A stretch of 64,000 nucleotides of DNA from contig JAKJER010000003.1 of assembly GCA_022705325.1 (NCBI GenBank), positions 181,419 to 245,418 on the forward strand. Direction: 5' to 3'. The notes beneath the pieces are model-generated. The model ran no database searches, was not told the origin of the DNA, and saw only the letters and a program-made list of their open reading frames with translations. Shown in pieces: positions 49-64,000 of the stretch. The stretch is from Planctomycetota bacterium (lineage in GTDB: Bacteria > Planctomycetota > Phycisphaerae > SM23-33). Positions within the stretch are counted from its first letter, which is position 1. Every line of letters begins with the position of its first letter. The translations under genes were made by a program, and so were the position numbers.

Positions 49-3198
<3,150 letters not shown>

Positions 3199-36918: not shown

Positions 36919-36981
36919 CAGCACCCGCACACCCTCCTGGTAATGGACATTCTGCAGCCAAGCGTCTACAATCCGCGTGGG

Positions 36982-43605: not shown

Positions 43606-43741
43606 CCGCCCAGGGGCGAGAGAGGGTTTCGATGGAATTTCACGCCGACGCGCCAAGCAATTCGCCGCAGCAGCGTTAACCATATAACAGAAGTTGGGCG
43701 GCACCGAGGCCGCCGGACGCGAGACAGGAGAAAGGAACACA

Positions 43742-45029: not shown

Positions 45030-45101
45030 TCGCAGGCATGCCGCACTCCCTGGACCGCAGACCCATGCAGCAACCGGCAAGAAAGGAATCGCACAAGTCC
45101 G

Positions 45102-45593: not shown

Positions 45594-46303
45594 AGCGGGG
45601 CGGCTTCACACTCTTCGAGGCCCTGTTGGCCATTGGATTGTCCATCGGCATCGTCGGCGGGACGATGGCCCTGTACCAGCAGGCCGTCATGATCCGCCAA
45701 CGCATCAGCGAGGACCTCGAGGTCCTGACGGCCGAGCGGATCATCATGGACCGCATGACGCAAGAGATGCGTGCCGCGATCGTCTACCCGTTCCTTGGCT
45801 TTGGCCTGGAAGGCCAGGCCGACAGCATCACGTTCATGACCGCGACCGTCCCGGGCCCGGCTGCCTGGGCGGTTCGATCAGGATCCGAAGACCCCGTCCC
45901 ACCGGAGACGGACCTGCAACTGGTGACGTATCGCATGCGAACGTACGAGGATGACTACGGCATGCTCCAGGTCGCGGGGATCGAGCGAAGCTGCCAGCGG
46001 ATCCTGTCCTCCCCCACCGCCCAGGAAGGGGCCGACGTGTCCACCGTCCTGCTGACCCCCTACATTCAGCACATGCAGTTCGCCTTCTTTGACGGATCAG
46101 GCTGGACCAACATCTGGCAGGACAAGGGGCTCCCCCTGGCCGTCGAGGTGACGATGGGTTTCCCGCCCCTGCCCGAAGAGGTCGAGGCCCAGGATTATCC
46201 CTACCCGGTCTTTCGGCGCATGATCTACCTGCCCGGCGCGACCACCTCGCTCCAGGGCCCGCTCATCCGCGGGCTGGGCGGACGGAGAGGAGGGGGACGA
46301 TGA
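45590..46303 (+). CDS. Minor pseudopilin (GspJ-like)
   Basis: MKRGGFTLFEALLAIGLSIGIVGG canonical prepilin N-terminus. Its start overlaps the upstream gene by ATGA. 237 aa. Confidence 0.65.
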   Translation: MKRGGFTLFEALLAIGLSIGIVGGTMALYQQAVMIRQRISEDLEVLTAERIIMDRMTQEMRAAIVYPFLGFGLEGQADSITFMTATVPGPAAWAVRSGSEDPVPPETDLQLVTYRMRTYEDDYGMLQVAGIERSCQRILSSPTAQEGADVSTVLLTPYIQHMQFAFFDGSGWTNIWQDKGLPLAVEVTMGFPPLPEEVEAQDYPYPVFRRMIYLPGATTSLQGPLIRGLGGRRGGGR

Positions 46304-46461
46304 TGATTGCTGATTACGGATCGCGGATTGCCGATTGCAGACGATTGACGATTGTCGATTGTCGATTCTCGACTCGTCCTCGGTGTCCCAGCGTCCAGTC
46401 GCGAGTTGGGAATCGAAGATCGCATACGGAGAATTCCGCAGTCCGTGATCCGCAGTCCGCA
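46300..46461. repeat. Intergenic short-repeat region: a run of cgattg(c/t/a) heptamer-like repeats (about 7 copies) followed by the 10-nt direct repeat ccgcagtccg x2, immediately before the gspK start
   Basis: Read directly: gattgctgattacggatcgcggattgccgattgcagacgattgacgattgtcgattgtcgattctcgac ... ccgcagtccgtgatccgcagtccgcaATG. Confidence 0.4.
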
Positions 46462-47865: not shown

Positions 47866-48070
47866 TCGCGGATGCAGGAGACACAAGCGAAGAAAGGCCC
47901 GGCGCAGCAGGCGGCGGAGCGACGCAGTTCAGATGGCACATGGGAGCCCTTGCTGCTTTGCGGAACCGCCCCGAGGCGATTGTGTCTCTTTGAGGCCCTA
48001 AGACGTCGAATTTCCTTCCCGGTCCTGCGTTTAACTTGAACAGGATGCGCATGGACGCTGGAGATCGAGA

Positions 48071-50029: not shown

Positions 50030-51098
50030 GCGCGAGAAGACGATGGCTGGCCTGACCGCCGCCATGGCGGGGATCTTCCTGGGTTTCCTGACGATCAACG
50101 GCTTCGTGCTCAAACCGCTGCAGAAGATGGATGTCGACGCCCAGAAGCTCAGCGGGCAACTGGCGAGCTTGCAGCGAGAGAATGCAGCCCGCAAGAGCCT
50201 CGAGCCGCGTCTCAAGGAGTTGGTGTCGCGCTGCTTCGGCGGCGACGAACTCAAGGCGGGCGAGGAACTGCGGGCCCGGCTGGTGACGCTGATGGACCAG
50301 GCGGGGCTGTCCACCGAGAAGCGTCTGCTGAACCCGGTCACCGGACAGTCGGTCAGTGGCGCGTACAAGGAGATCGGACGGCGGGTACAGGTCAGCGGGA
50401 AGCTCGGCAACGCCGTCGACTTCCTCTATTTGCTCAATGCAGAGCCGCACCTGCACCGCCTGGACTCGCTCAGCCTCACACCCGCCCAGGGAGGCACCGT
50501 GGAGTTGAACCTGACCTACTCCACGCTCGTGCCAGCGGAGGGCTTGCCAGCCTCCAAGGACATCAAGCCGCTTCCCACGCAGCCCGCGCCCAACCTGCGA
50601 GAAGGCGAGCGGACACTGTACGATCCGATCGCGTCGCGAGATCTTCTGCGCCCGTACATCAAGCGCCCCCCGCCGCCTCCCCCGGTGCCGCAGCCCGTGC
50701 CCGCTGTTGCACGCCGCCATGATCCGCCCCCACCGCCTCCCCCGCCGCCAAAGACCAGCAGCGAGGGACGCTATCGCCTGGTCCTCATGCCGATGGCGCC
50801 GGGAGAGCCGTTCTCCGTGCTGGACCAGAGCACGCGCCAGACCTACTCCTACAACATCGGGCAGTTCCTGGGCGGCGGAAAGGTCGTCATGGTCGACTTC
50901 CGCCCCTGTCCCCTCCCGGACGACCCCGACACGATCTCGCCCAGCAGGCTCATTCTCCAGATCGGCGACGCCTACTGGGCCGTCGAGTATGGACAGACCC
51001 TCTCGGCCAAGCGACAATTGCGGAAGGATGAATTGCCTCCTGAATTGTCTGGCGCCGCAGCAGCGCCGGCCAGTCAACCGGCCTCGCCAGCCTCCTGA
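50022..51098 (+). CDS. GspM/PilO-like bitopic assembly protein with a poly-proline segment (hypothetical)
   Basis: Overlaps the upstream stop (ATGAATAA). N-terminal TM LTAAMAGIFLGFLTINGFVL plus coiled coil, then a PPPPPPVPQPVP...PPPPPPPPK tract. Assignment is by position and topology only. Confidence 0.45.
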   Translation: MNKREKTMAGLTAAMAGIFLGFLTINGFVLKPLQKMDVDAQKLSGQLASLQRENAARKSLEPRLKELVSRCFGGDELKAGEELRARLVTLMDQAGLSTEKRLLNPVTGQSVSGAYKEIGRRVQVSGKLGNAVDFLYLLNAEPHLHRLDSLSLTPAQGGTVELNLTYSTLVPAEGLPASKDIKPLPTQPAPNLREGERTLYDPIASRDLLRPYIKRPPPPPPVPQPVPAVARRHDPPPPPPPPPKTSSEGRYRLVLMPMAPGEPFSVLDQSTRQTYSYNIGQFLGGGKVVMVDFRPCPLPDDPDTISPSRLILQIGDAYWAVEYGQTLSAKRQLRKDELPPELSGAAAAPASQPASPAS

Positions 51099-51350: not shown

Positions 51351-54300
51351 ATGCGAACTAACTGGATACTGGCTTTCGCGGTTATCTCCGCCCTTGCCGT
51401 GGCCCTGACTGCCCAGACGACCAAACCGTCGCCGCAGCCGGCCACCCAGCCAGCCGCCGCACCGACCACCCAGCCCGCCGTCGCTGCCGCGCCGACCACC
51501 AAGCCGGCCGTTGCCGCTGCGCCGACTACCCAGCCCGCCGTCGCTGCCGCACCGACCACCAAGCCGGCCGTTGTCGCTGCGCCGACTACCCAGCCCGCCG
51601 TCGCTGCCGCACCGACCACCAAGCCGGCCGTTGCCGCTGCGCCGACCACCCAGCCCGCCGTCGCTGCCGCACCGACCACCAAGCCGGCCGTTGCCGCTGC
51701 GCCGACCACCAAGCCCGCCGTCGCTGCCGCGCCGACCACCAAGCCGGCCGTTGCCGCTGCGCCGACCACCCAGCCCGCCGTCGCTGCCGCGCCGACTGTG
51801 AGACCGGCCGGGACGTACAGTAAGGACTCACCCAAGATCTTCCTCTTCCAGTTTAGCGGCTGTCCGTATCATGAGGTGATTCGCAAGTTCGCCCAGGCCT
51901 GTAAGAAACCGTTGTTGGGGGAAGTCGAGATTCCGGGCAGTCTCACGTTCTTCGACAGCGAACCTTACTGCTACGAAGAAGCCCTGGACACCCTCAACAT
52001 CCTCTTGAACATGCGGGGCTTCGCCCTGATCGAGTTCAAGCGGTATCTCCGCGTGGTGCAGGTAACCGAACTGGCCAACAACGCGAGCATCCTCCGCGGA
52101 CTGGACCAGGTCGGGGACATCCGGAACGAGCAGGTCGTCACCGTCTTGCTTCCGGTGGAGAATCTCGATCCGGAGGCCGCCTCCAAAGCCATCGTCCGCA
52201 TGGTGTCTTCGTACGGCTCGATCACTCCCATGCCTCGAGGCAAGGGTGTTCTCATCACCGACCGTCTGTCCAGCGTTCGCCGCATTCAGGACATGATCCA
52301 GATGCTGGACGCCGAGCGGGCGACCGCCAGCGACATCAAGACCATCCAGATCAAGAAGGCTTCGGCCAAGTCCGTCGCTTCGGTCATCAATCAGGTCCTG
52401 GGCGGTCCGTCTTCCAGCCCCGAACGCAGGTCGTCATCGGCTCCGCCGGCCTCTTCGGGTGACAGCGTGTCAGCCTACAGCGATGACCGCACCAATCTCC
52501 TGTTCCTGCGCGGTGTGGGCGCCAAGCTGCAACTGGCCGAGCAACTCGTGGAGAAGTTGGACAGCGAAGCGACCAGCGATGTCAGCGACATGCGCCTGAT
52601 CGAGTTGAAGAACGCCCGCGCCGAGGACGTAGCCAAGACCATCAGCGAAGTCATGCCCCGCGACCAGATCCAGGTGGCGGGCCCGCCCAGCAGCGACTCC
52701 AGCCGACGCCACTATCCCGTCACCGTGGCCAAGGGCAAGGTCGTCGCCGAGCCGGAGACCAACCGCCTGATCGTCTCCGCTCCGCTGGACGTGATGGTCA
52801 AGATCGAGGAACTGATCAAGAAGCTCGACGTGGCCAGCGACACCAGCGGCGGGGTCAAGGTCCTGCGTCTCAAGACCGCCGACGCCGCCCAGCTTGCCCC
52901 TATTGTCTCGGCCGCGGTGGCCAAGCAAACCCTCGCCGCTGGCGGGGCGAGAAGGGGAATGGTCACTGTCACCGCAGACAGCCGCACGAATTCTCTGGTG
53001 ATCGTGGGCCCGGCCGGCGACATCCAGGCAGCCGAGAAGCTCGTCGCCGAACTCGACCGCCCGCTGGACAAGGAAGAGGAACGCCAGATCCGCATCATCC
53101 AGTTACCCTCGGGCAACGCCGAGAAGCTGGCCAGTGCCATCTCCCGCGTGCTGGACAGCTCCCCGTCTTCGCATTACGGCTCCAGCCGCTATGGGTCGTC
53201 CTCGTCCCGCTCCCAGACCAGCCGCCCGCGTATCGAGGCCGACTCCGGCACCAACAGTCTGCTGATCTCGGCTGCCCCAAGCGACTGGCCGCAGATCGAA
53301 TCCATCCTGAAGCAGATCATTCCGCCCCCACCGCCTGACCAGCCCGCGGCCGCCACGCCGCTGGCCTTGACGACTCCGGTGCTGCGCCACGTGCCGCTCA
53401 AGTTCGCCAAGGCGGAGGATCTCGCCACCACGCTGCTGTCCGTGTTCGGCACGCGCCGGCGCAGCGAGGCCGTTTCCATCATCATCACCCCGTCGGCCCG
53501 CACCAACAGTCTGCTCATCTCGGCCGCCGAACCCGACCAGATCGCCATGGGGGAGTTGATCAAGACTCTCGACGTCGACTCCAGCGAGAAGCTCGACCCG
53601 GTCCGCATCGTCGAACTGAAGGTGGCTGACGCCGCCAAGGTCGCCGACGCCATCCAGGCCGTCCTGCCCCCGCGCCCCGTCGGGCGACGCGGCGAGACCC
53701 ACCAGGTCACCATCCACGCCGACACCGCCACCAACACCCTCTTTATCCGCGCCGGCGAGGCCGAGCAGAAGCTCATCGACGAGGTTATAGCCCGGATGGA
53801 CAAGGGCGCAATCGACCCCACCATTGTCCGCGAGACGCGAATCATCGCCCTCAAGTTCGTCCCTGCCAGCCAGATGGCGGCCAGTGTCCAGCAGTTCTTC
53901 CAGTCGGCCGGCGGCTCGCCCTCCAGCCCATACGGCTCGTCGTATTATCGCCGCCGGAGCTACTCCTCCGCCTCCGGAGAAAAGGCCTTCGATTCGCTGG
54001 TCGTCGCCGCCGCACCGGGAGACCAGGCCCTCATCGTGGAAGGACCCAAGAAGAAGGTCGACGAGGTCGCCGCCTTCGTCGCCAAACTCGACACCCAGGA
54101 CACCGGCCAGGCGACAATTGTCCGCGTCTATACCCTCAAGGAAGCCGACGCCGGCGAAATCTCCCGGACCCTGTCGGCCACTTTCTCCAAGAAGTGGCAG
54201 GACCAGAAGCGACGCGATCCGAAGCTGGCCGACCCCGAGCCGTCGTTTGAAATCAACGCCGGCGCCAACCAGCTCATCATCGCCGCCACCGAGAAGCAGC

Positions 54301-57300
54301 TTACCGAGATAGACGCGTTGATCGCCCAACTCGAGAAGGCCCCGGCTGTGACCAGCCAGACCAAGACCTTCCCCCTCAAGCACGCCAAGGCCGAGGAACT
54401 GGTCAACGTCCTCCAGACGATGCTGACCTCAGGCGCTCCCAGCCCCTACAGCGGCTATGCGTACAGTCGGCGATCCAGAAGCGTCGAGGGCGAGTTGAAG
54501 ATCGCCGCCATCGCCGCCTCCAATTCGCTGGTCATCCAGGGCCCGCCAGCCAAGATGGCCAAGGCCGAGCAACTCATCGCCTCCTTCGACACGCCCCAGG
54601 CGGGCGAGTCCTCGCTGATCAGCATCGTGCCGCTCAAGGCCGCCTCCGCCTCCCAACTCGCGGTCACCCTCAAGAACATGCTGCCTCCCCAGAGTCGAGA
54701 GCGAGAAAGCGAGTTGGTCATTCAGGCGGACACGGCGAGCAACTCCCTGCTCATCCGCGCCAGCGCCACGCAGCGAAAGATCATCGACGAACTGATCCCC
54801 AAGCTCGACGTCGAGTTGGCCGAAGGCACCCGCGAGATGCGGGTCGTGCCCGTAATGTTCGTCTCGGCCTCTCAGATCGCCCAGACCGTGTCGCAGGTCT
54901 TCCGCGGCCAGAACGGGACATCTTCGTCGTCTTCCTCCTATCGACGATCGTACTATCGGTCGTACGACGCCCCGCAGGCGGGTCCGGGCAGCGACGAGAT
55001 TCTTATCACGCCCGCCCCCAACGACCGCAGCATCGTCATCGAAGCCCCCAAGAAGAAGATCGAGCCGATTGTTCAGCTCATCGCAACCCTTGACGTTGCC
55101 GAAGGCACCGCCAAGGCCAACCAGATCCGCACCTACCAGCTCAAGAACGCCAACGCAGCCGAAGTTTCCCGCGTTCTTTCGGGCATGTACACCCAGCGAA
55201 CCAGCGGATACGGCGAGGCCCCTTCCGCGCGAGGCGGCTCGGGCCCGACCGCCACCCCGCCCAAGTTCGACCACGACACCGCGACCAATCAGCTCGTCGT
55301 CTCGGCCAGCGACGAACAGTTCGTCGAGATCGACGCACTGATCAAGAAGCTGGAAGAGGCGCCCCAACTGGCCACCCAGACCAAGACCTTCCCGCTCAAG
55401 CACGTGCGGGCGAGCGAGGTCCTGCCGGTGCTGACCAACCTGCTGAGCGAAACGCCCGCCTCCACCCCCGAGGGCTACGCGGGCTACTCGCCCTACTCCT
55501 CCCGTCGGCGCTACGGAGCGTCTGCGTCGTCGGAGCTTCGCCTGGCCGCCCTCCCCGGCGCCAATAGCATCGTCGCCCAGGGCCCGCCGCCCAAGATGCT
55601 CAAGGTCGAGCAACTCATCGCTTCCTTCGACACGCCCCAGGCGGGCGAGTCCTCGCTGATCACGATGGTGCCGCTGAAGAACGCCTCGGCCGCCAAACTC
55701 GCCGAGACCCTCAAGTCCATGCTGCCCGCCGCCTCGCGAGACAAGCCAAGCGAACTGGTCGTCCAGGCCGACACCGCGACCAACTCTCTGCTCATCCGCG
55801 CCGACGGCACCCAGCGGAAGATGCTCGACGAGTTGATCCTCAAACTCGACGTCGAGGTCGTCCAGACCGCCCGCGAAATGCGGGTCGTTCCGGTGCAGTT
55901 CGTCTCCGCCGCCCAGATCGCCCAGACCGTCTCCCAAGTCTTCCTGAAACAGGACGCTTCGTCGTCCTCCTACCGGCGATCCTCGTACTACTACCGCTCG
56001 TATTACCGCTCCTACGACGAGCCCGAAGAACCCACCCGCACCGGCGCGGATGCCGACAAGATCGTCGTGACGGCCTCCCCCAACGACCGCTCCGTCATCG
56101 TCGAGGCCCCCAAGCTGAAGATCGAGCCTGTCGTTCAGCTCATCACGACCCTGGACGTGCCCGAGGGCACGGCCAAGCCCCAGCAGATCCGCACCTACCA
56201 GCTCAAGAACGCCAACGCAGCTGAAACCGCCCGCATCCTGAGCAATATGTACGCCCAGCGTCAGAACGGCAGCGTCAGCAGCTACGGCGAGGAAGGCAGT
56301 CCAAGCCGGACCGCCAAGTCGAAGATCCCCGCGCCGAAGTTCGACCACGACGCCGGATCCAATCAGCTTGTCATCTCGGCCAACGACGAGCAGTTCGTCG
56401 AAATCGAAGCCCTGATCAAGACGCTGGATGAGACGCCCCAACTGGCCACGCAGACCAAGACGTTCCCGCTCAAGCACGCCAGGGCCAGCGAGATCGTCCC
56501 GCTGCTGACCAGCCTGTTGAGCGACACGCCCTCGTCCCCGGCGGTCGGCAGCTACTCGCGGTATTCATCGCGAAGTCGCTACGGCGCGTCGGCGACCGCC
56601 GGAGAGGTCCACGTCGCCACCCTGCCCGGGACCAACTCTGTGATTGTGCAGGGCCCGCCGGCCAAACTCACCCAGGCCGAGCAGTTGATCTCCACGTTCG
56701 ACACGCCCGAAGCGGGCGGCTCGTCGCTGGTGACGGTGATCCCGCTCAAGAACGCCTCGGCCGTCACGCTCGCCGAGACGTTGCGGAGCATGCTGCCCCC
56801 GCCCGTGCGGGGAAGGCCCGAGGAGATCGTCATCCAGGCCGACAGCCTGACCAACTCGCTGTTGGTCCGAGCTCCCGAAGACCAGCGCAAGACTATCGAC
56901 GACCTCATCGCCAAGCTCGACGGCGGCCTGGCCGATAATGCCCAGACCCGCGAGATGCGGATCATCCCGGTCAAGCACCTGTCGGCCGCCCAACTCGCAG
57001 AGACCGTCAGCGTCATGTACCAGCAACTCCGCGAGGCCCGGCGCGGGCTCCGCGCCCGTCCCGTTGACCCGGGCGAGCAGGTCGTCATCACCCCCTCTCC
57101 CAATGACCGCTCGATCGTCGTCGAAGCCCCCAAGAAGAAGGTAGAGGAGATCGCCAAGCTGGTGGCCGATCTGGACACCGAGGAGAACAGCTTCCAGATC
57201 CTCGTGCGGACCTACCAGCTCAAGACCGCCAGTGCATCGGAGCTGGCCCGTTCCCTGACCAACATCTTCGCCGCCAAAGTCGCCGGCTCCGCCTCGCCCG

Positions 57301-60300
57301 GCCGGCGCCCCGGCGCCGTGCCCAATCGCGCCGGTCCGCAGCCCACCTTCGACGTCGACGCCGCCAGCAACCAACTCCTGGTCGCCGCCACGTCTGAACA
57401 ACTCATCGAGATCGAGCAGCTCATCCAGAAGATGGACAATCCGGAGGTGCAGGCCGTCCAGACCCGCATCTTCCCCATCCAGCACGCCAAGGCCGACGAG
57501 CTGGTCACTCTCCTTCAGACGATGCTGAATGAGAATCCCCCCTCGGCCGCCTACGGCAGCTCGGCGTACTACTCGCGACGCTACCGCCCGACCGGGTCGT
57601 CCAGTGGAGACGACATCCGCATTTCCACGCTGCCCGGCACGAACAGCATTGTCGTCCAGGGGCCGCCCAACAAGCTTACGCGGGCCGAACAGCTCATCAA
57701 GAGCTTTGACACGCCCGAGGCGGCCGTCGCCGCCACCGTCACCATCATCCCCATCAAGAACGCCTCCGCGGCCACCCTGGTCGAGACCCTGCGGGCCATG
57801 CTCCCGCCGGTCAAGGGTCGGGCCGAGGAAGTGTTCATCCAGGCCGACATCCTGACCAACTCCGTGCTCATCCGCGCTCCCGAGACCCAACGGAAAATGG
57901 TCACCGAGTTGGTCGCCAAGCTGGACACCCAGAGCGAGCTTACCCGCGAGATGCGCGTTATCCCGCTCACCTTCACCAGCGCCACCCAACTCGCCAGCGC
58001 CCTGCAGGTCATGTACCAGCAGCACATGGCCACCCGGGGCGGCCCGCGGGCCAAGCCGGTGGACCCGGCCGAGCAGGTCATCTTCACCCCCGCGCCGCAC
58101 GACCAGGCCCTGGTCGTCGAGGCGCCCAAGAAGAAGATGGAGGAGATCGCCGCCCTCATCGAGAAGCTGGACGTCCAGGAAAGCCCCGACCGCCTCACGG
58201 TACGCACCTACCAGTTGGCCGAGAACTCCGACGCGGTCGAGACCGCCCGTACGCTGGCCAAGCTCTTTACCGAGACCCGCGTTCGCCCGGGCGCGATCGC
58301 GGGCAATCAACAGCAGCCCCGCTTCGAGGCCGACGGAGTGGGCAACCAGCTCATCATCGCCGCCACGCCCAAGCAGTTCGAGGAGATCGAGCCGCTGCTG
58401 AAGAAGCTCCAGGACTCCGCCCAGCTTGCCGTGCGAAGCAAAACCTACCAGCTCAAGTTCGCCAAGGCCGCCGACATCGTCCAGATGCTCCAGTCCATGC
58501 TGACCGGGACCACCGGCCGGTCGCGGTACTCCGCCTATGGGGACCCGGCCGCCGCGTCGAGCGAGGTCCGTGTCGCTGCCGTCAACGGCAGCAACAGTGT
58601 CTTCGTCCAGGGGCCGCCGGCCAAGCTGGCCATGGCCGACGAACTGATCCGCACCTTCGACACCGAGCAGGCGGCTGCCCGCAGCGTGATTCAGATCATC
58701 AAGCTCAAGAACGCCCAGGCGGCCTCGCTGGCCCAGGCCGTCAACGCCACGCTGGAGGCCCGGGCCGCCCGCCGTCCTTACGGCGAGCAGGCCGGCGCCG
58801 ACGACGGAAAGGTCACCGTCACGCCCGAGCCCAACTCCAACAGCCTTCTGGTCCGCGGGCCGCTGGCCGAGATTCCCTCCGTGCTGGAGATGATCCGCGA
58901 CCTGGATGAGGGCGGGACGAGCGCCAAGAGCGAAGTCCGCATCTTCCCGATCAAGAACTCCGACGCATACGAGCTTTCGACAACCCTGGGCAGACTGGTG
59001 CAGGACATGATCGCCCAGCAGACGCGCGCTCGCGGCGACGTGCCCGTGCCGGCCTTCAGCATCGCCGCCGACACCCGCACCAACTCGCTCATCGTCTCCA
59101 CCACCTCCGCCTACTTCGCCATCGTCGAGCAACTCCTGGAGAACCTCGACAAGGAACAGCCCATCCGCGACGTTCAGTACATCGCTCTGACCAACGCCCA
59201 AGCCGTCGACGTAGCCGAGAAGGTCAACGCCCTCTTCACCGACCGCAAAGGGTCCGACAAGCCTGTCATCGAGGCGGAGGAGTACACCAATTCCCTCACC
59301 GTCATCGCCAAGGCGGTGGACCTGCTGACGATCCAGGAAATGGTGGAGAAGCTCGACAAGGGACGGCGCGAACTTCAGGTCCGGGTCGTCCCCATCAAGC
59401 AGATCAAGGCCGAACGGATGGCCGAGATCATCCAGCGGGTATACGGGCAGACGACGAGCAGCCGTGTCATCGTCACCGGCCAGTCCCCCCCGACGCGGAT
59501 GGGGATCGAGTTGCCCGCCCCTCAACCGACGCCCGCTCCGCCCCCGCCGGCGGGCAAAGGCCCCGCCGCTTCGGCCAAGCCGTGGACCGGCAGCGTTCCT
59601 CGCCCGGCGACGCAGCCAGCCACCCGGCCCACCACGCGACCGGAGAGCGCCCCAGCCGCCAAGGACGATGGCGAGTTGGAGGAGAACCCTCCGATCACCA
59701 TCGCCATCGACCATAAGAGCAACACGCTGATCATCTCGGGCCCGCCCCAGGAGATCGACAACATCCAGGGCCTCATCGACCAGATGATGACCTCGCCCGA
59801 GGAGGCCGAGGCTGAGTTCCGGACCTATAGGATCGAGCACGCCGACCCGGTGGTTCTGGCCCAGACGCTGGAGGACATGTTCAACCCCAAGCCCAAGGTA
59901 GTCTACCTCCAAGCCCGTACCGGACAGCCGGCGCAGGCCCCGGCTGAACCGCCCCCGCCCATTACTGTACAGGCCGACGCCCGCACTCGCTCCATTGTCG
60001 TCCGGGCGAAAGTCATCGACTTCGACATGATCGAGCCGCTGATCAAGTACCTCGACCAGGAGACTTCCGCCCACAGCGAACTGCGCGTCTTCCCGCTGGA
60101 GAACACCGAGGCCGGCGAGGTCGCCGACAACCTCAAGGAGATGTTCAACCTGGCCCAGAAGGGGACCGCGGCCCAGCCCGCGCCCCAGCCTCAGGCCGGG
60201 CGCACGGCCCAGCGCGGCCGGGCCGACCGTGTCCGCCAGGTCATGGACCTGCAGGTCGCTGCCGGCGGCTCAGCCAAGGTCGATCCCTATTCGGCCATCT

Positions 60301-63300
60301 CCATCTCCGCCAACCGCAACACCAACAGCGTGGTCGTCTCGGCGCCTAAGGAAGTCATGAAGCTCGTCGAGTCGATCATTCAGGAGTTGGACCAGTCGGC
60401 TCTCCAGTCCAAGACCGTGGTCCGCATGTACCCGCTCAAGCACGCCGAGGTCACGCCGACGGTGTCGGCCCTGCGGGAGATCTTCTCGCAGGCGGCCCGC
60501 ACCAGCCCGCTGCGCTCGTCCCGCACCGGTTCGACGCCCGGAGCCTCGCTGCGAGACGCCCCGATCGTCGTCACCGGCGACGAGGTCGGCAGGCAGATCA
60601 TCGTGTCCGCCCCCGTCACCCAGCATGAAACGGTCGCCAAGGTCATCCAGGACATCGACACCGCCCAGGGAGTCGGGCAGATCCTGGTGCAGGTCTACCG
60701 CATCCAGAACGCGGAGGCGACCAGCGTCGCCGCTTCACTCAGTACCATGTTCTCGTCGACGGCCTCCGCCGCCGGCACGGGGCGGCGTGTCCGCACTGCC
60801 ACCGGAGGCGGCGGCCCCAGGATCAGCGCCGACGCCAGCAGCAACTGCATCGTGGTGCGGGCCGTCCAGGAGGACCACGCCGAGATCACCCGTCTGCTGG
60901 AGGAACTGGACGCCTCGCCGGCCGACAAGTATCCCGTGCGCCGCATCCCCATCCAGAACGCAAGCCCCACCGTCCTGGCCACCAACCTGCGGGCGGTCTT
61001 CGCCGGCCGTTCAGGCACGGCTGGCGGGCGGCGAGGCGGTGCCGCCGGACGCGACGGACTGGTCATACAGCCTGACGAGGACGCCCGCATGCTCCTGGTC
61101 CGAGCGGACGAGGAGACCTACAAGAAGATCGAGGAGATGGTCCAGGCCCTCGATGCCGTCAGCGTCTCCGACAAGCTCCAGACCGTCATCATCCCGCTCG
61201 AACACGGGCAGGCGACCAGCGTGGCCGCCGCATTATCCCAGGCGTTCGGCGCCTCCGCACGCGGGGGACGCCGCTCCACCAGCCCCGAAGACGAAGTCCG
61301 CATCGCTGCGGAGACGTTCACCAACTCCATCCTGATCACCGCCAGCGAGAAGAATCTGCTGAAGATCCAGGCGATGGTCCAGAAGCTTGAGAAGGACACG
61401 GCCGGCGGGGTCAAGAGCGAGTTCCTTGTGCTCACCAACGCCAAGGCCGACGACCTGGCGACCGTCCTGGCACGCCTGGCCGGCGCGAGCGGACGCGGCG
61501 CCCGGGGCGCAGCCGGGACCGGCGGGGTCACCGTGGCCGCCGATGCCGCCGCCAACGCCCTGGTGTTCTCCGGACCGGCCGCCGAGGTCGCGAAGCTCTC
61601 GACGATGGCCAAGCAACTCGACCAGGCGGCTCAGGGCTCGGCTGTCCAGGTGTTCATGATCCCGTTGAAGAACAACATCGCGTCGGAGGTGGCAGCCGCC
61701 ATCCAGCAACTCCACGCCCAGCAGGCGGTGCGCCGCGGCGGGGCCGCTTCCCGCGAACCGCTCTCGGTCACGTTCGACGACTCCGCCAACGTCGTCGTCC
61801 TGTCCACCACCAAGCGACAGTATGACGAGATTTCACAGTGGGTGACCAAGTTCGAGGAACTGAAGGTCACGCGCGAAGCCCCGAAGATCATCGCCCTGGT
61901 CAACAGCGACCCGCAGGAGATCGAGCGGGCCCTTCGCCAGATGTTCGCCGGCGGGTCGGCCCCTGGAGGGCGCGGCTCGCGGACCGTTCGCACCACCGGC
62001 AAGGTCGAGATCGCCTCTCTGCCACAGCAGCGTGCCCTGCTGGTCAAGGCTGGCGCCGAGGACTTCAAGCTCATCAGCGATCTGGTCAAGTCGCTGGACG
62101 AGTCGGCCCCGACCGCCATGCCCAAGCAGACAATGGTCGCGCTGAAGCACGCGCCGGCCGCCAGCGTGGCCTCCGCCTTGACGGCGGCCTTCGGCCCCGG
62201 CAGGCGAGGGCGCACCGCCCTGGCCCGACCCGAGGATGAGGTCCGCGTCGTGGCCGAGGCGGCCTCCAACTCCGTCATCATCACCGCCGACGAGAAGAAC
62301 ACGACCGCCGTGCTGAGCCTGATCGCCAAGCTGGACACCGACGAGGCCTCGGGCAAGGCCCAGTTCCTGATCCTCAAGAAGGCCAAAGCCGTCGAGTTGG
62401 CCCGCGTGCTCAGCGCGGCCACGTCGCGGGGCGCCCGCAAGCCGGGCCAGCAGCCGCTGGTAGTCACGGCGGATGCCGCCAGCAACGCCCTGGTCCTCTC
62501 GGGCCCGCCCAACGACATCGAAGCCGCCATCGCCATGGCCACCAAGCTGGACGAGGCCGCCACGGCGGGCATCTCGGAAGTCTTCCTGATCCCGCTCAAG
62601 ACGGGCCAGGCCAGCGAGGTCGCCGCCACCGTACAGCAGATCTACCAGCAGCAGGCCGCGGCGACGCGCTCGGCGGGGCGGACGATCGACCCCCTCGCCG
62701 TCTCGGCTGATGACTCGGCCAACGTGATCATCCTGGCCACCACCAAGGTCATGCATGACCAGGTGAACCAGTGGATCGGCAAGGTCGAAGAGATGAAGGT
62801 CGGCCAGGGCGAGCCGCGCCTGGTCACGCTCGAGAACGCCGATGTGGCCGAGGTAGAGAAGGCCGTGCGGGCGTTGTTCATCACTGTCCGGGCGACCGCC
62901 GGGCGTGGCGCCCGCGGGGCGGCCGGGGCCACCGGCGCCCGTATCGAGGTGGCTTCCCTGCCCCAGCAGCGGGCCTTGCTGATCAAGTCCGGCGAGGAAG
63001 ACTTCAAGGCCATCAACGACCTGATCATGGCACTGGACGCAGCCGCCGTCACCCGCCTGAACAAGCAGACGATCATTCCGCTGAAGCACGCCCAGGCCAC
63101 CAGCGTAGCTCCGGCTTTGCAGTCGGCATTTCAGCAGCAGATTCGCGGGCGCGGAGCGGCGGTGAAGCCAGAAGATGAGGTCCGCATCATCGCCGAGCCG
63201 ATCTCCAACACATTGATCGTGGCTGCCAGCGACAAGAACACGGTCCTCGTGCAGGGCCTGGTGGCCAAGCTGGATACGGACGAGGCCTCGGGCAAGGCCC

Positions 63301-64000
63301 AGTTCCTGATTCTCCAGAAGGCCAAGGCGGTCGAACTGGCCAAGGTGCTGTCTACGGTGTCGGCCAGTCGCAGCCGTAAGCCCGGCCAGCAACCGCTGAT
63401 CATCACCGCCGACGTTGCCAGCAACGCCTTGGTCATGTCGGGCTCCGCGACCGAGATGGACGCGGCGATCAAGATGGCGCAGGAGTTGGACGGCGCCGCC
63501 AGCGAGAGCCTCGCGCAGGTATTCCTGATCACGCTCAAGAGCGGACAGGCCAGCGACGTGGCTGCCACGGTTCAGCAGATTTATCAGCAGCAGACGGCGG
63601 CCGCCCGCACCGCGGGCCGCTCCATCGATCCCCTGGCGGTCTCGGCGGATGACTCCGCCAACGTGCTCATCCTCTCAACCACCAAGGCGATGCATGACCA
63701 GGTGAACCAGTGGGTGCAGAAGGTTGAGGAGATGAAACTCAACCAGGAAGCGCCCCAGTTGGTCACCCTCGAGAACGCCGACGTCCAGGAAGTGGAGAAG
63801 GCCATCCGACAGATCTTCGTCTCCGGGAAGGTCAGCCGAACGGGAAAGGCCATCGGGAAGATCGAATTGGCCGTGTTGCCCCAGCAGCGAGCCTTGTTGA
63901 TCAAGGCGGGCGAGGAGGACTTCAAGGCCATCAACGAGTTGATCAAGTCCCTGGACGCTGCGGCCGTTGCCGCCAAGCACCAGCAGACGCTGATTACACT
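51351..64000 (+). CDS. Giant secretin-like protein, 3'-partial (more than 4,216 codons open to the window end). Signal peptide, Pro/Thr/Ala tandem linker, a secretin N0-like domain, and 40 or more tandem secretin-N (N1-type) domains. The secretin pore domain is presumably beyond the window.
   Basis: ATG at 51351 with an AGGAG RBS 8 nt upstream. Frame 0 was checked at 51351, 54291, 59400 and 63951 and is the same throughout. The ORF track lists no plus-strand frame-0 ORF anywhere in 51351-64000, so the frame has no stop codon. The recurring motif (F/Y)xLK(N/H)AxAxE(L/V)...TNSL(L/I)(I/V)(R/S)Axxx...(L/I)IxKLD, about every 80-95 aa, is the secretin_N (PF03958-type) signature of GspD/PilQ N1-N3 domains. 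The first globular domain (FLFQFSGCPYHEVIRKFA...NMRGFALIEFKRYLRVVQV) resembles N0. Codon usage and amino-acid composition are gene-like. The minus-strand ORFs across it have antisense-type G/R/L/V-rich composition. Confidence 0.75.
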   Translation, partial: MRTNWILAFAVISALAVALTAQTTKPSPQPATQPAAAPTTQPAVAAAPTTKPAVAAAPTTQPAVAAAPTTKPAVVAAPTTQPAVAAAPTTKPAVAAAPTTQPAVAAAPTTKPAVAAAPTTKPAVAAAPTTKPAVAAAPTTQPAVAAAPTVRPAGTYSKDSPKIFLFQFSGCPYHEVIRKFAQACKKPLLGEVEIPGSLTFFDSEPYCYEEALDTLNILLNMRGFALIEFKRYLRVVQVTELANNASILRGLDQVGDIRNEQVVTVLLPVENLDPEAASKAIVRMVSSYGSITPMPRGKGVLITDRLSSVRRIQDMIQMLDAERATASDIKTIQIKKASAKSVASVINQVLGGPSSSPERRSSSAPPASSGDSVSAYSDDRTNLLFLRGVGAKLQLAEQLVEKLDSEATSDVSDMRLIELKNARAEDVAKTISEVMPRDQIQVAGPPSSDSSRRHYPVTVAKGKVVAEPETNRLIVSAPLDVMVKIEELIKKLDVASDTSGGVKVLRLKTADAAQLAPIVSAAVAKQTLAAGGARRGMVTVTADSRTNSLVIVGPAGDIQAAEKLVAELDRPLDKEEERQIRIIQLPSGNAEKLASAISRVLDSSPSSHYGSSRYGSSSSRSQTSRPRIEADSGTNSLLISAAPSDWPQIESILKQIIPPPPPDQPAAATPLALTTPVLRHVPLKFAKAEDLATTLLSVFGTRRRSEAVSIIITPSARTNSLLISAAEPDQIAMGELIKTLDVDSSEKLDPVRIVELKVADAAKVADAIQAVLPPRPVGRRGETHQVTIHADTATNTLFIRAGEAEQKLIDEVIARMDKGAIDPTIVRETRIIALKFVPASQMAASVQQFFQSAGGSPSSPYGSSYYRRRSYSSASGEKAFDSLVVAAAPGDQALIVEGPKKKVDEVAAFVAKLDTQDTGQATIVRVYTLKEADAGEISRTLSATFSKKWQDQKRRDPKLADPEPSFEINAGANQLIIAATEKQLTEIDALIAQLEKAPAVTSQTKTFPLKHAKAEELVNVLQTMLTSGAPSPYSGYAYSRRSRSVEGELKIAAIAASNSLVIQGPPAKMAKAEQLIASFDTPQAGESSLISIVPLKAASASQLAVTLKNMLPPQSRERESELVIQADTASNSLLIRASATQRKIIDELIPKLDVELAEGTREMRVVPVMFVSASQIAQTVSQVFRGQNGTSSSSSSYRRSYYRSYDAPQAGPGSDEILITPAPNDRSIVIEAPKKKIEPIVQLIATLDVAEGTAKANQIRTYQLKNANAAEVSRVLSGMYTQRTSGYGEAPSARGGSGPTATPPKFDHDTATNQLVVSASDEQFVEIDALIKKLEEAPQLATQTKTFPLKHVRASEVLPVLTNLLSETPASTPEGYAGYSPYSSRRRYGASASSELRLAALPGANSIVAQGPPPKMLKVEQLIASFDTPQAGESSLITMVPLKNASAAKLAETLKSMLPAASRDKPSELVVQADTATNSLLIRADGTQRKMLDELILKLDVEVVQTAREMRVVPVQFVSAAQIAQTVSQVFLKQDASSSSYRRSSYYYRSYYRSYDEPEEPTRTGADADKIVVTASPNDRSVIVEAPKLKIEPVVQLITTLDVPEGTAKPQQIRTYQLKNANAAETARILSNMYAQRQNGSVSSYGEEGSPSRTAKSKIPAPKFDHDAGSNQLVISANDEQFVEIEALIKTLDETPQLATQTKTFPLKHARASEIVPLLTSLLSDTPSSPAVGSYSRYSSRSRYGASATAGEVHVATLPGTNSVIVQGPPAKLTQAEQLISTFDTPEAGGSSLVTVIPLKNASAVTLAETLRSMLPPPVRGRPEEIVIQADSLTNSLLVRAPEDQRKTIDDLIAKLDGGLADNAQTREMRIIPVKHLSAAQLAETVSVMYQQLREARRGLRARPVDPGEQVVITPSPNDRSIVVEAPKKKVEEIAKLVADLDTEENSFQILVRTYQLKTASASELARSLTNIFAAKVAGSASPGRRPGAVPNRAGPQPTFDVDAASNQLLVAATSEQLIEIEQLIQKMDNPEVQAVQTRIFPIQHAKADELVTLLQTMLNENPPSAAYGSSAYYSRRYRPTGSSSGDDIRISTLPGTNSIVVQGPPNKLTRAEQLIKSFDTPEAAVAATVTIIPIKNASAATLVETLRAMLPPVKGRAEEVFIQADILTNSVLIRAPETQRKMVTELVAKLDTQSELTREMRVIPLTFTSATQLASALQVMYQQHMATRGGPRAKPVDPAEQVIFTPAPHDQALVVEAPKKKMEEIAALIEKLDVQESPDRLTVRTYQLAENSDAVETARTLAKLFTETRVRPGAIAGNQQQPRFEADGVGNQLIIAATPKQFEEIEPLLKKLQDSAQLAVRSKTYQLKFAKAADIVQMLQSMLTGTTGRSRYSAYGDPAAASSEVRVAAVNGSNSVFVQGPPAKLAMADELIRTFDTEQAAARSVIQIIKLKNAQAASLAQAVNATLEARAARRPYGEQAGADDGKVTVTPEPNSNSLLVRGPLAEIPSVLEMIRDLDEGGTSAKSEVRIFPIKNSDAYELSTTLGRLVQDMIAQQTRARGDVPVPAFSIAADTRTNSLIVSTTSAYFAIVEQLLENLDKEQPIRDVQYIALTNAQAVDVAEKVNALFTDRKGSDKPVIEAEEYTNSLTVIAKAVDLLTIQEMVEKLDKGRRELQVRVVPIKQIKAERMAEIIQRVYGQTTSSRVIVTGQSPPTRMGIELPAPQPTPAPPPPAGKGPAASAKPWTGSVPRPATQPATRPTTRPESAPAAKDDGELEENPPITIAIDHKSNTLIISGPPQEIDNIQGLIDQMMTSPEEAEAEFRTYRIEHADPVVLAQTLEDMFNPKPKVVYLQARTGQPAQAPAEPPPPITVQADARTRSIVVRAKVIDFDMIEPLIKYLDQETSAHSELRVFPLENTEAGEVADNLKEMFNLAQKGTAAQPAPQPQAGRTAQRGRADRVRQVMDLQVAAGGSAKVDPYSAISISANRNTNSVVVSAPKEVMKLVESIIQELDQSALQSKTVVRMYPLKHAEVTPTVSALREIFSQAARTSPLRSSRTGSTPGASLRDAPIVVTGDEVGRQIIVSAPVTQHETVAKVIQDIDTAQGVGQILVQVYRIQNAEATSVAASLSTMFSSTASAAGTGRRVRTATGGGGPRISADASSNCIVVRAVQEDHAEITRLLEELDASPADKYPVRRIPIQNASPTVLATNLRAVFAGRSGTAGGRRGGAAGRDGLVIQPDEDARMLLVRADEETYKKIEEMVQALDAVSVSDKLQTVIIPLEHGQATSVAAALSQAFGASARGGRRSTSPEDEVRIAAETFTNSILITASEKNLLKIQAMVQKLEKDTAGGVKSEFLVLTNAKADDLATVLARLAGASGRGARGAAGTGGVTVAADAAANALVFSGPAAEVAKLSTMAKQLDQAAQGSAVQVFMIPLKNNIASEVAAAIQQLHAQQAVRRGGAASREPLSVTFDDSANVVVLSTTKRQYDEISQWVTKFEELKVTREAPKIIALVNSDPQEIERALRQMFAGGSAPGGRGSRTVRTTGKVEIASLPQQRALLVKAGAEDFKLISDLVKSLDESAPTAMPKQTMVALKHAPAASVASALTAAFGPGRRGRTALARPEDEVRVVAEAASNSVIITADEKNTTAVLSLIAKLDTDEASGKAQFLILKKAKAVELARVLSAATSRGARKPGQQPLVVTADAASNALVLSGPPNDIEAAIAMATKLDEAATAGISEVFLIPLKTGQASEVAATVQQIYQQQAAATRSAGRTIDPLAVSADDSANVIILATTKVMHDQVNQWIGKVEEMKVGQGEPRLVTLENADVAEVEKAVRALFITVRATAGRGARGAAGATGARIEVASLPQQRALLIKSGEEDFKAINDLIMALDAAAVTRLNKQTIIPLKHAQATSVAPALQSAFQQQIRGRGAAVKPEDEVRIIAEPISNTLIVAASDKNTVLVQGLVAKLDTDEASGKAQFLILQKAKAVELAKVLSTVSASRSRKPGQQPLIITADVASNALVMSGSATEMDAAIKMAQELDGAASESLAQVFLITLKSGQASDVAATVQQIYQQQTAAARTAGRSIDPLAVSADDSANVLILSTTKAMHDQVNQWVQKVEEMKLNQEAPQLVTLENADVQEVEKAIRQIFVSGKVSRTGKAIGKIELAVLPQQRALLIKAGEEDFKAINELIKSLDAAAVAAKHQQTLIT
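51459..51803 (+). repeat. Coding tandem repeat: about 11-12 copies of a 30-nt unit (A-P-T-T-[QK]-P-A-V-A-A), that is, a 60-nt Q/K-alternating unit x about 6, forming a Pro/Thr/Ala linker after the signal peptide of the giant gene
   Basis: Near-perfect nucleotide repeats accacc(c/a)ag(c/g)c(c/g)gccgt(c/t)gc(t/c)gc(c/t)gc(g/a)ccg were read directly. The repeat is in frame with the gene. Matching ORF-track repeats: 51511-51801 (+) and 51344-51835 (-). Confidence 0.8.

What the first reader, a model, noticed from the sequence alone, without database searches (positions are those of the whole stretch)
54300..64000. Two families of near-identical higher-order (4-domain) super-repeats inside the giant gene, which makes mis-assembly likely
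Between about 54.3 and 59.4 kb a block of four N-domains recurs five times with a period of about 1.0-1.08 kb. The copy markers are:
- QTKTFPLKHAKAEEL (about 54.36 kb);
- QTKTFPLKHVRASEV (about 55.38 kb);
- QTKTFPLKHARASEI (about 56.45 kb);
- QTRIFPIQHAKADEL (about 57.46 kb);
- RSKTYQLKFAKAAD (about 58.43 kb).
Between about 61.3 and 64.0 kb a different 4-domain block recurs three times with a period of about 0.94 kb. Its markers are EVRIAAETFTNSILITASEKN, EVRVVAEAASNSVIITADEKN and EVRIIAEPISNTLIVAASDKN, and the third copy is still running at the window end. Nucleotide identity between copies reaches roughly 85-90% over stretches (for example 62290-62400 versus 63230-63340). This implies recent tandem amplification or concerted evolution. 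The domain number may be variable between strains. Short-read assemblies could easily collapse or expand these repeats.
Basis: seen in the sequence. Interest (0 to 1): 0.6.

Follow-up and report, generated by a model that had tools for sequence, protein, structure and literature searches.

The report
Block repeats in a giant secretin
The repeats are real four-domain duplications inside a 6,885-residue outer-membrane secretin with 74 stacked-ring domains (known secretins have 3-6); the copies in the window are old and diverged, and the near-identical ones that break assemblies lie just past the window end.

Summary
The periodicity is real. Domain identity is 0.41 at lag 4 against about 0.24 at other lags.

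- **Family A:** four full 4-domain units (54363-58439), the first domain of a fifth, and a degenerate unit upstream.
- **Family B:** three units in the window (61188-63986).
- **"Near-identical" is wrong for these copies:** whole units are 54-72% identical in nucleotides, dS is 0.6-0.95, and the longest exact repeat is 40 nt.
- **The window is correctly assembled:** an independent MAG contig matches 51736-64000 at 100%.

That contig and a JGI contig let me rebuild the whole gene: 20,658 nt, 6,885 aa, 74 Secretin_N domains and a C-terminal secretin pore. It is the last gene of a type II secretion operon in an anaerobic-digester Phycisphaerae bacterium.

Family B has six units. B4, just past the window, is 91-98% identical to B2 and 89-99% identical to B5, with a 100-nt exact repeat. 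Three contigs end at that repeat.

So the assembly worry is right in spirit but wrong about location. Hundreds of PVC bacteria encode 3,000-5,500-aa secretins, and I found no paper describing them.

The parts
51351..64000 (+). 5' 61% of the giant secretin (GspD-like) gene. The full gene is 20,658 nt (6,885 aa) and continues about 8.0 kb beyond the window.
   Evidence: Unbroken frame. Secretin_N 1520.8 bits. GC3 is 0.88. Full gene rebuilt from the window, L099 and L007.
51351..51416 (+). Predicted Sec signal peptide (MRTNWILAFAVISALAVALTAQ).
   Evidence: Read from the translation; an inference, since no predictor was run.
51453..51796 (+). Pro/Thr-rich tandem array (AAAPTT[QK]PAV, 30/60-nt period, 96% matches). 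It is the main assembly breakpoint.
   Evidence: TRF. Contigs L002, L003, L005, L006 and L009 end here; L001 and L099 carry 100-N gaps; L004 is 240 nt shorter.
51870..52322 (+). N0-N1-like region of GspD.
   Evidence: PF21305 scores 17.7 bits, below the cutoff of 27. TIGR02517 positions 9-159 match with E=4.6e-14.
52338..53318 (+). Unique Secretin_N domains W01-W04, one-to-one with R01-R04 of the full-length relative.
53385..54362 (+). Degenerate A-like unit A0 (W05-W08), 36-38% aa identity to A1-A4.
54363..55382 (+). Family A unit 1 (W09-W12).
55383..56456 (+). Family A unit 2 (W13-W16), the closest pair with A1 (72% nt, 66% aa). AF2 shows four beta-alpha-beta-beta-alpha domains.
56457..57464 (+). 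Family A unit 3 (W17-W20).
57465..58439 (+). Family A unit 4 (W21-W24).
58440..58661 (+). W25, a lone type-a domain (the start of a fifth A unit only).
58692..61154 (+). Nine unique domains W26-W34, largely one-to-one with R16-R24 of the relative (W28 and W34 are ambiguous). Two of them carry long inserted loops.
61188..62129 (+). Family B unit 1 (W35-W38).
62130..63068 (+). Family B unit 2 (W39-W42). Its 3' ~660 nt are 91-98% identical to B4, which lies outside the window.
63069..63986 (+). Family B unit 3 (W43-W46).
63987..64000 (+). First 14 nt of B unit 4. B4-B6, 16 more unique domains and the PF00263 pore domain lie beyond the window.
40409..51098 (+). Upstream T2SS operon: GspE 40409-42184, GspF 42403-43605, GspG 43742-44209, GspH-like 44166-45029, GspI-like 45102-45593, GspJ 45590-46303, GspK 46300-47865, PilM-like GspL 48071-50029, weak GspM/GspC-like 50022-51098.
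   Evidence: Pfam, precomputed gene calls, NCBIfam.

Best explanation
The two repeat families are tandem duplications of four-domain blocks. They sit within the periplasmic N-domain stack of a giant type II secretion secretin (GspD-type) from an anaerobic-digester Phycisphaerae bacterium.

**Shown**
- The complete gene is 20,658 nt and encodes 6,885 aa.
- Its layout is: signal peptide, Pro/Thr linker array, weak N0, 74 Secretin_N (beta-alpha-beta-beta-alpha) domains, C-terminal secretin pore.
- It closes a gspE-F-G-H-I-J-K-L-(M/C) operon.
- The domain order is: unique domains, the A array (A0 plus A1-A4 plus one extra domain), nine unique domains, the B array (B1-B6), 16 unique domains, the pore.
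- Most copies are old (dS 0.6-0.95) and all are under purifying selection.
- One young exchange (dS about 0.2) made B4 a mosaic of B5 (5' part) and B2 (3' part).
- The arrays expanded in this lineage. A 51-domain relative has two A units where this gene has four.

**Inferred**
- The arrays grow and are patched by unequal recombination and gene conversion between units.
- As in solved secretins, each N-domain contributes one ring to a 12-15-mer. At roughly 3-4 nm per ring (my recollection of GspD and PilQ structures), 74 rings would build a periplasmic conduit of order 200-300 nm.
- Block duplication is therefore a way to lengthen the channel to span the enlarged periplasm reported for Planctomycetota.

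**Assembly consequences**
- Copies inside the window are safe.
- The Pro/Thr array and the B4/B5 100-nt exact repeat fragment nearly every short-read assembly.
For: - **Periodicity and unit boundaries:**
- **Divergence of units:**. Conversion-like exact runs.
- **Fold:** PDB sequence hits to GspD N1-N3. AF2 gives four beta-alpha-beta-beta-alpha domains with core pLDDT 75-86. The top Foldseek hits are GspD secretins, E=7.5e-10.
- **Operon:**. GspG scores 108.4 bits against a cutoff of 88.85.
- **Full gene:** P0173 matches the window protein over 4,040 aa with 0 mismatches, then the L007 protein over 340 aa with 0 mismatches. L099 equals window 51736-64000 at 100.000% and L007 1-1022 at 99.9%. 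The rebuilt gene is a single ORF of 6,885 aa. PF00263 scores 183.8 bits.
- **B1-B6 mosaic and exact repeats:**. dS is about 0.2 and dN/dS about 0.2 for the young segments.
- **Colinearity and copy-number difference with the 51-domain relative:**
- **Contig ends at the repeats:**
- **Family context:** 342 relatives in species-representative genomes, with ORFs of 2,492 to more than 4,600 aa. 434 representatives at E<=1e-30, and the top 150 are mostly 3,000-5,532 aa.
- **Variable super-repeat periods across the family:**
- **Literature:** six rings in Thermus PilQ is described as an unusual number (PMC5745081). Enlarged periplasm in Planctomycetota (PMC11131199).
Against: - The ring-stack and conduit-length inference is untested. 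AF2 gives no defined inter-domain geometry (pTM 0.29), and no oligomer was modelled.
- The periplasm width of this organism is unknown. The family also occurs in Verrucomicrobiota.
- The N0 match is below the Pfam cutoff, and the GspM/GspC assignment is weak.
- All assemblies are short-read and probably used similar software. Extra B4/B5-like units could therefore be collapsed in all of them.
- The true length of the Pro/Thr array is unresolved (the window against L004's -240 nt).
- Expression is unproven.
Confidence: 0.8

Rival explanations
1. The repeats are an assembly artefact: units were duplicated, collapsed or joined chimerically by the assembler.
For: The gene fragments in almost every assembly. 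B4 looks like a B5/B2 hybrid, which is what a chimeric join could look like.
Against: - Every unit carries its own substitutions. Units are 54-72% identical in the window.
- B4 differs from B2 and B5 by 2-11% and is not identical to either.
- The frame stays open for 6,885 codons.
- L099 reproduces 51736-64000 with 0 mismatches. L001 and L004 are gap-free over A.
- L099 and L007 agree over B4-B5 with 1 mismatch in 1,022 nt.
Confidence: 0.04
2. One reading: both families are recent amplifications of near-identical units, kept alike by ongoing concerted evolution, so unit number varies freely between strains.
For: - The B2/B4/B5 segments are 89-99% identical with dS about 0.2.
- Exact runs are longer than shuffles give.
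- Some family members have 100% identical domain copies.
- Unit number differs from the relative.
Against: - All pairs within the window have dS 0.62-0.95 and 54-72% nt identity.
- A2-A3, A3-A4 and B1-B2 show no excess of exact runs.
- No unit-number difference appears among four same-species assemblies.
- The a-b-c-d unit order already exists in the 44%-identical relative, so the unit itself is old.
Confidence: 0.12
3. The four-domain unit is a functional structural module (for example a repeating four-ring segment of the channel) kept by selection, and not merely the unit of duplication.
For: - The four domain types a-d keep their order in both this gene and the relative.
- dN/dS is 0.2-0.6.
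- The types differ consistently in loop length.
Against: Other members of the family show periods of 2, 3, 5, 7 or 12 domains, and about a third show none. AF2 gives no defined packing within the unit (pTM 0.29).
Confidence: 0.2
4. The machine is a PVC-type type IV pilus or fibre-extruding system and not a protein-secreting T2SS, and the long N-domain tube guides a filament.
For: - The GspL position is occupied by a PilM_2-domain protein (75.8 bits).
- That protein has a weak Amuc_1101-family hit.
- A piston-type pseudopilus seems hard to reconcile with a very long channel (inference).
Against: - GspG passes its equivalog cutoff.
- T2SSJ and T2SSK domains are present.
- The secretin's N-terminus aligns to the GspD model.
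- The top structural hits are T2SS GspD.
- No PilT, PilN, PilO or PilP was recognised in the operon.
Confidence: 0.2

Closest known systems
T2SS secretin GspD (E. coli, V. cholerae, ETEC, Klebsiella PulD, Pseudomonas XcpQ; PDB 5wq7, 5wq8, 5zdh, 6hcg, 5wln)
   Same: - N-terminal N0-like region.
- Secretin_N ring-building beta-alpha-beta-beta-alpha domains.
- C-terminal PF00263 pore.
- Encoded with gspE, F, G, J and K.
- Best sequence and fold matches.
   Different: - GspD has N0-N3 and about 650 aa. This protein has 74 N-domains and 6,885 aa.
- It also has a Pro/Thr tandem linker and Ser/Arg/Tyr-rich disordered loops.
- The N0 match is sub-threshold.
- The gene sits at the end of the operon.
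- No GspC was clearly recognised.
Thermus thermophilus PilQ (six stacked N-rings; PMC5745081)
   Same: A secretin whose periplasmic stack is extended with extra beta-alpha-beta-beta-alpha rings. The paper says the rings let it span most of a wide periplasm. This is the same design principle I infer here.
   Different: - Six rings and 757 aa, against 74 domains and 6,885 aa.
- It belongs to a type IV pilus and DNA-uptake machine.
- No higher-order block repeats are reported for it.
Uncharacterised giant 'secretin N-terminal domain-containing proteins' of Planctomycetota, Phycisphaerae and Verrucomicrobiota MAGs (loci L019-L098; representatives P0174-P0322; ENA contig_22862)
   Same: - Same architecture, and the same operon in contig_22862.
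- 46-62% identical C-terminal region.
- 23 to more than 50 N-domains.
- Frequent multi-domain super-repeats.
   Different: - At 6,885 aa this one is longer than any of the 150 best-scoring representatives (maximum 5,532 aa).
- Its relative has 51 domains. The extra 23 are about 10 in the A array, about 10 in the B array and 3 among the C-terminal unique domains.
- The repeat period differs between lineages (2, 3, 4, 5, 7 or 12 domains).
Higher-order tandem domain repeats in giant bacterial surface proteins (RTX or Bap-type adhesins, Ig-like repeat proteins). This comparison comes from my own knowledge.
   Same: Multi-domain blocks amplified in tandem, mosaic identity from recombination between units, and an assembly hazard.
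   Different: Those are secreted or surface passengers whose repeats extend outward from the cell. Here the repeats are periplasmic ring-forming modules of an oligomeric channel.

Membership tests
Secretin (GspD/PilQ/InvG superfamily) | C-terminal secretin pore domain (PF00263) | tested here: met
   183.8 bits against a cutoff of 27.5, at aa 2305-2471 of the L007 ORF. L007 was shown to be the 3' end of this gene. It lies outside the window.
Secretin (GspD/PilQ/InvG superfamily) | Periplasmic ring-building N-domains (PF03958, beta-alpha-beta-beta-alpha) | tested here: met
   1520.8 bits, 46 stretches in the window. AF2 secondary structure. Foldseek hits to GspD and InvG N-domains.
Secretin (GspD/PilQ/InvG superfamily) | Homo-oligomeric (12-15-mer) channel in the outer membrane | not testable with these tools
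T2SS GspD specifically | N0 domain at the N-terminus | tested here: inconclusive
   PF21305 scores 17.7 bits, below the cutoff of 27. TIGR02517 positions 9-159 match with E=4.6e-14, but the whole-model score of 51.8 is far below the cutoff of 351.
T2SS GspD specifically | Encoded with the T2SS core: GspE ATPase, GspF platform, GspG major pseudopilin, minor pseudopilins | tested here: met
   T2SSE 472 bits, T2SSF 190 bits, T2SSJ and T2SSK. GspG 108.4 bits against 88.85. The same operon occurs in the relative.
T2SS GspD specifically | GspC partner that binds N0 | tested here: inconclusive
   Only a weak GspC_delta hit (19.2 bits against 150), in the C-terminal half of the 358-aa protein.
T2SS GspD specifically | Secretion of folded exoproteins | not testable with these tools
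   Needs genetics or proteomics.
Type IVa pilus secretin PilQ | AMIN domains and a pilMNOP neighbourhood | tested here: not met
   No AMIN hit in the protein. Only a PilM_2-like protein is present, and no PilN, PilO or PilP was recognised.
Tandem higher-order repeat array evolving by unequal recombination or gene conversion | Similarity peaks at a fixed multi-domain lag | tested here: met
   Lag 4 is 0.41, lag 8 is 0.34, background is 0.24.
Tandem higher-order repeat array evolving by unequal recombination or gene conversion | Mosaic tracts of high identity between units beyond chance | tested here: met
   A1-A2 P=0.001 and B2-B3 P=0.026. B4 is a mosaic of B5 and B2, with a 100-nt exact run.
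Tandem higher-order repeat array evolving by unequal recombination or gene conversion | Unit number varies between relatives | tested here: met
   Four A units here against two in contig_22862. No variation was seen among same-species assemblies.

The most novel reading that the evidence does not exclude
Giant secretins with tens of stacked N-rings (74 here) form periplasmic conduits hundreds of nanometres long. That would be a distinct architectural class of type II secretion or filament machine, specific to Planctomycetota and Verrucomicrobiota. Its length would be tuned to an enlarged periplasm by duplication and loss of multi-domain blocks. These conduits might correspond to large envelope complexes already seen by microscopy in planctomycetes, such as crateriform structures.
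Probability: 0.3. Interest if true: 0.85.

Novelty: new variant of a known kind. Interest (0 to 1): 0.62.

Why it matters
**For assembly and annotation.** This shows exactly which repeats in such genes are dangerous. The hazards are a low-complexity linker array and young exchanged units, not the diverged units. It also shows that a 20.7-kb gene can be rebuilt from overlapping MAG contigs.

**For biology.** Secretins are textbook channels with three to six periplasmic rings. A 74-domain secretin belonging to a family of hundreds of 3,000-5,500-aa members across PVC bacteria raises several questions:
- How does a type II machine work across such a distance?
- How are such channels assembled?
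- Does channel length track periplasm width?

If the rings stack as in known secretins, this would be among the longest protein conduits in bacteria. It would also offer a direct molecular handle on the unusual planctomycete cell envelope.

Tried and rejected
- **Whole-protein homologue search:** searching with the whole 4,216-aa fragment timed out.
- **Word-indexed protein database:** it returned only proteins up to about 1,500 aa, so it could not show full-length relatives.
- **First genome-collection scan:** a scan with the last B unit found nothing.
- **Metagenome scan:** it found only L007. Because the contig length (64,007 nt) nearly equals the window length, I first suspected L007 was the window's own 5' end. 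That was rejected because window 1-3198 encodes UvrA.
- **Origin of L007:** I then favoured L007 coming from a 94%-identical sister strain. That was rejected when P0173/L099 bridged the window and L007 with 0 and 1 mismatches. The 91-98% identity to B2 is paralogy between B4 and B2.
- **P0051 look-up:** not on record.
- **Literature:** five literature searches found no paper describing giant multi-N-domain secretins. The library covers open-access papers only, so absence is not proof.
- **Second breakpoint:** no repeat or hairpin explains the recurrent contig breakpoint at 45342.
- **Antisense ORFs:** long antisense ORFs over the gene (for example 56565-60074, 1,169 aa) were dismissed as high-GC artefacts. 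GC3 is 0.88 in the + frame and all the domain evidence is on the + strand.
Full report
**1. The observation**

The + strand carries one unbroken reading frame from 51273 to the window end. The start is an ATG at 51351, followed by a signal-peptide-like sequence.

- Pfam assigns 46 Secretin_N (PF03958) stretches, 1520.8 bits.
- An HMM built iteratively from the protein itself resolves 46 domains. Two of them are split by long loops.
- For nearly every domain from W09 to W25 and from W35 to W46, the most similar other domain lies exactly four positions away.
- Mean identity is 0.41 at lag 4, 0.34 at lag 8 and 0.29 at lag 12, against 0.23-0.25 at other lags.
- DNA repeat families have spacings of 1020, 1041, 1071-1074, 1005-1008 and 975 nt in the first region and 930-939 nt in the second.

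So the two families of four-domain super-repeats are real and sit where stated.

Family A has four complete units (A1-A4, 54363-58439), only the first domain of a fifth (W25), and a degenerate unit upstream (53385-54362). Family B has three units in the window, and a fourth starts in its last 14 nt.

**2. How alike the copies are**

| Measure | Value |
|---|---|
| Whole-unit nucleotide identity | 0.54-0.72 |
| Whole-unit amino-acid identity | 0.36-0.66 |
| Best pairs (A1-A2, B2-B3) | 0.72 nt, 0.66 aa |
| Synonymous divergence (dS) | 0.62-0.95 |
| dN/dS | 0.33-0.81 |
| Longest exact repeat outside the Pro/Thr array | 40 nt |

"Near-identical" and "recent" therefore do not describe the copies in the window. 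There is nonetheless a signal of exchange between copies. The longest exact runs exceed codon-shuffled controls for A1-A2 (40 nt, P=0.001) and B2-B3 (32 nt, P=0.026), but not for the other neighbouring pairs.

**3. What the gene is**

The nine genes upstream on the same strand are:
- GspE, GspF and GspG (GspG is above its NCBIfam cutoff);
- GspH-, GspI-, GspJ- and GspK-like pseudopilins;
- a PilM-domain GspL-like protein;
- a protein with weak GspM and GspC similarity.

Residues 174-324 of the giant protein align to positions 9-159 of the GspD model. A repeat unit matches the N1-N3 domains of solved GspD secretins by sequence.

AlphaFold2 on unit A2 gives four beta-alpha-beta-beta-alpha domains with confident cores. 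The Ser/Arg/Tyr-rich loops are disordered, and there is no fixed inter-domain geometry. The best structural matches are T2SS GspD secretins, followed by T3SS InvG.

Exact-match look-ups identify the organism as an anaerobic-digester Phycisphaerae MAG, "Planctomycetes bacterium ADurb.Bin126".

**4. Rebuilding the whole gene**

A JGI contig (L007) begins inside a B-type unit. It carries 26 further complete Secretin_N domains after the partial one it starts in, then a canonical PF00263 pore domain (183.8 bits) and a stop.

The exhaustive representative search returned P0173 (4,484 aa). This is the same protein from NCBI MAG GCA_035417265.1.
- It matches the window protein over 4,040 residues with no mismatch.
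- It extends 443 residues further.
- It matches the L007 protein over 340 residues with no mismatch.

At the DNA level its contig (L099) equals window 51736-64000 at 100.000% over 12,265 nt, and equals L007 1-1022 with one mismatch.

Joining the window, 306 nt of L099 and L007 gives one ORF of 20,658 nt. It encodes 6,885 aa with 74 N-domains, followed by the pore. Third-codon-position GC is 0.88. Domains start every ~80 residues, with linkers of ~10 residues.

**5. The full B array and the young exchange**

Family B has six units (B1-B6, 61188-66818 in extended window coordinates).

B4, immediately past the window end, is a mosaic.
- Its first ~450 nt are 89-99% identical to B5.
- Its last ~660 nt are 91-98% identical to B2.
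- The other B pairs are 57-73% identical.
- In these young segments dS is about 0.2 and dN/dS about 0.2.
- The longest exact repeats in the gene are 100 nt (64290/65229, B4/B5), 63 nt and 59 nt (B2/B4) and 56 nt (B4/B5).

So near-identical stretches and recent exchange do exist. Of the three units involved (B2, B4, B5), only B2 lies in the window.

**6. Assembly evidence**

The same operon was found in at least 15 contigs from independent samples.

*Breaks at the Pro/Thr array (51453-51796; 30/60-nt period, 96% matches):*
- Five contigs end in or at its edge: L002, L003, L005, L006 and L009.
- Two MAG contigs carry 100-N gaps there: L001 and L099.
- One contig (L004) is 240 nt shorter there.

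*Breaks at the 100-nt B4/B5 repeat:*
- L001's contig ends at about 64287. This is inferred from contig coordinates.
- L007 starts at 64307.
- L099 ends at 65328.

*Agreement across the window's repeats:* L099 (100%), L001 (99.94% to 61073) and L004 (99.62% to 57173) all align without gaps.

The window's repeat structure is therefore well supported. The real hazards are the linker array and the young B units.

**7. Evolution of the arrays**

A long-read-style ENA contig carries the same operon and a complete ~15-kb orthologue with 51 N-domains. It is 44% identical at the N-terminus. Two other fragments from the same contig are 53% and 60% identical to the C-terminal region of L007.

The two proteins are colinear.
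- The unique domains pair largely one-to-one: W01-06 with R01-06, W26-34 with R16-24, and L12-27 with R39-51. A few positions (W01, W28, W34, L16, L17, L22) are ambiguous.
- The relative has two A units where this gene has four plus A0.
- The relative also has a shorter B region.
- Within-genome copies are more alike (0.5-0.72) than cross-genome counterparts (0.36-0.53).

The a-b-c-d unit is thus older than the split between the two lineages. Unit number has changed since then, by lineage-specific duplication, homogenisation or both.

**8. Family context**

- A scan of species-representative genomes with a C-terminal alignment found 342 relatives.
- In the 80 best loci, all Planctomycetota/Phycisphaerae or Verrucomicrobiota MAGs, complete secretin ORFs span 2,492-4,397 aa (23-45 domains).
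- About half of those loci are still open at the 10-kb flank limit.
- The exhaustive search found 434 cluster representatives at E<=1e-30. The top 150 are mostly 3,000-5,532 aa.
- Super-repeats recur in this family with periods of 2, 3, 4, 5, 7 or 12 domains. Some have 100% identical copies, and about a third of members have none.

Block duplication is therefore a general way in which these proteins lengthen, and the period of four is lineage-specific.

**9. How it most likely works**

*Shown:* this is the secretin of a T2SS-type operon, with 74 ring-type N-domains under purifying selection.

*Inferred:* in solved secretins each N-domain forms one ring of the periplasmic vestibule. The six rings of Thermus PilQ are described as an unusual number that lets the complex span most of a wide periplasm (PMC5745081). 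At about 3-4 nm per ring (my recollection of GspD and PilQ structures), 74 rings would give a conduit of roughly 200-300 nm. Planctomycetota are reported to have an enlarged periplasm and large outer-membrane complexes (PMC11131199).

I therefore favour a length-tuned periplasmic channel, extended by block duplication. This step is untested, and I put its probability near one half. How a pseudopilus would drive secretion over that distance is unknown. A filament-guiding role remains possible.

**10. Comparison with what is known, and novelty**

Membership in the secretin superfamily is met on the pore domain, the N-domains and the operon context. The N0 and GspC features are inconclusive. PilQ-type features (AMIN domains, pilNOP) are not met.

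Five literature searches found no description of secretins with tens of N-domains. Databases label them only as "secretin N-terminal domain-containing protein".

I class this as a new variant of a known kind. The repeat observation itself is ordinary for giant modular proteins. The object it sits in is the interesting part.

**11. Caveats**

- All assemblies are short-read, so collapse of further B4/B5-like units cannot be excluded.
- The length of the Pro/Thr array is unresolved.
- Expression, oligomerisation and channel length are not demonstrated.

Noticed in passing
window 51453-51796: Pro/Thr-rich tandem array (AAAPTT[Q/K]PAV, 30/60-nt period, about 11 units) between the signal peptide and the N0-like region of the giant secretin. 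Its length differs or is gapped between assemblies: L004 is 240 nt shorter, and L001 and L099 carry 100 Ns. Its true length is uncertain even in the window.
   Followed up: partly
window 45342 (inside the GspI-like gene 45102-45593): Three independent contigs (L010, L011, L013) all end exactly at window position 45342. No repeat or strong hairpin is present there. It may be a strain-variable junction. It is unexplained.
   Followed up: partly
window 48883-51356 (loci L017, L018): A sister population at 94.0% nucleotide identity exists in other digester samples. Both of its contigs stop within 5 nt of the giant gene's ATG. Variant operon proteins are 94-98% identical.
   Followed up: partly
window about 54430-54500, 54900-54990, 55450-55530, 55950-56060 and equivalents in other units: Ser/Arg/Tyr-rich low-complexity loops (for example SSSYRRSYYRSYD and YSPYSSRRRYG) are inserted between helix 1 and strand 2 of the type a, c and d domains. 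AF2 predicts them to be disordered, with pLDDT below 50. Their function is unknown. They would line or decorate the putative channel.
   Followed up: no
window 59382-59786 and 60084-60392: Two N-domains (W29, W31) are split by long Pro/Ala/Thr/Gln-rich insertions of about 30-60 residues. These could be flexible hinges or gates within the stack.
   Followed up: no
window 56565-60074 (- strand) and other antisense ORFs over the gene: Very long antisense ORFs (up to 1,169 aa) overlap the secretin gene. They are most likely artefacts of high GC and stop-poor antisense frames, because all the domain evidence and GC3 of 0.88 support the + frame.
   Followed up: partly
window 36943-38631 (+) and 38712-40163 (-): A bacterial GH3-family (acyl acid-amido synthetase-like) gene and a 483-aa protein with faint EF-hand matches lie directly upstream of the T2SS operon.
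   Followed up: no
window 1-3198 (+): The window begins inside a UvrA-like gene. The gene's N-terminal ~100 residues are an unusual Arg/Gly/Ser/Pro/Glu-rich extension.
   Followed up: no
loci L038, L077, L085, L094: Other giant secretins in Planctomycetota and Verrucomicrobiota MAGs contain domain copies that are 100% identical, at periods of 5, 2, 3 and 4 domains. These are candidates for very recent amplification or for assembly collapse or duplication in those MAGs.
   Followed up: no
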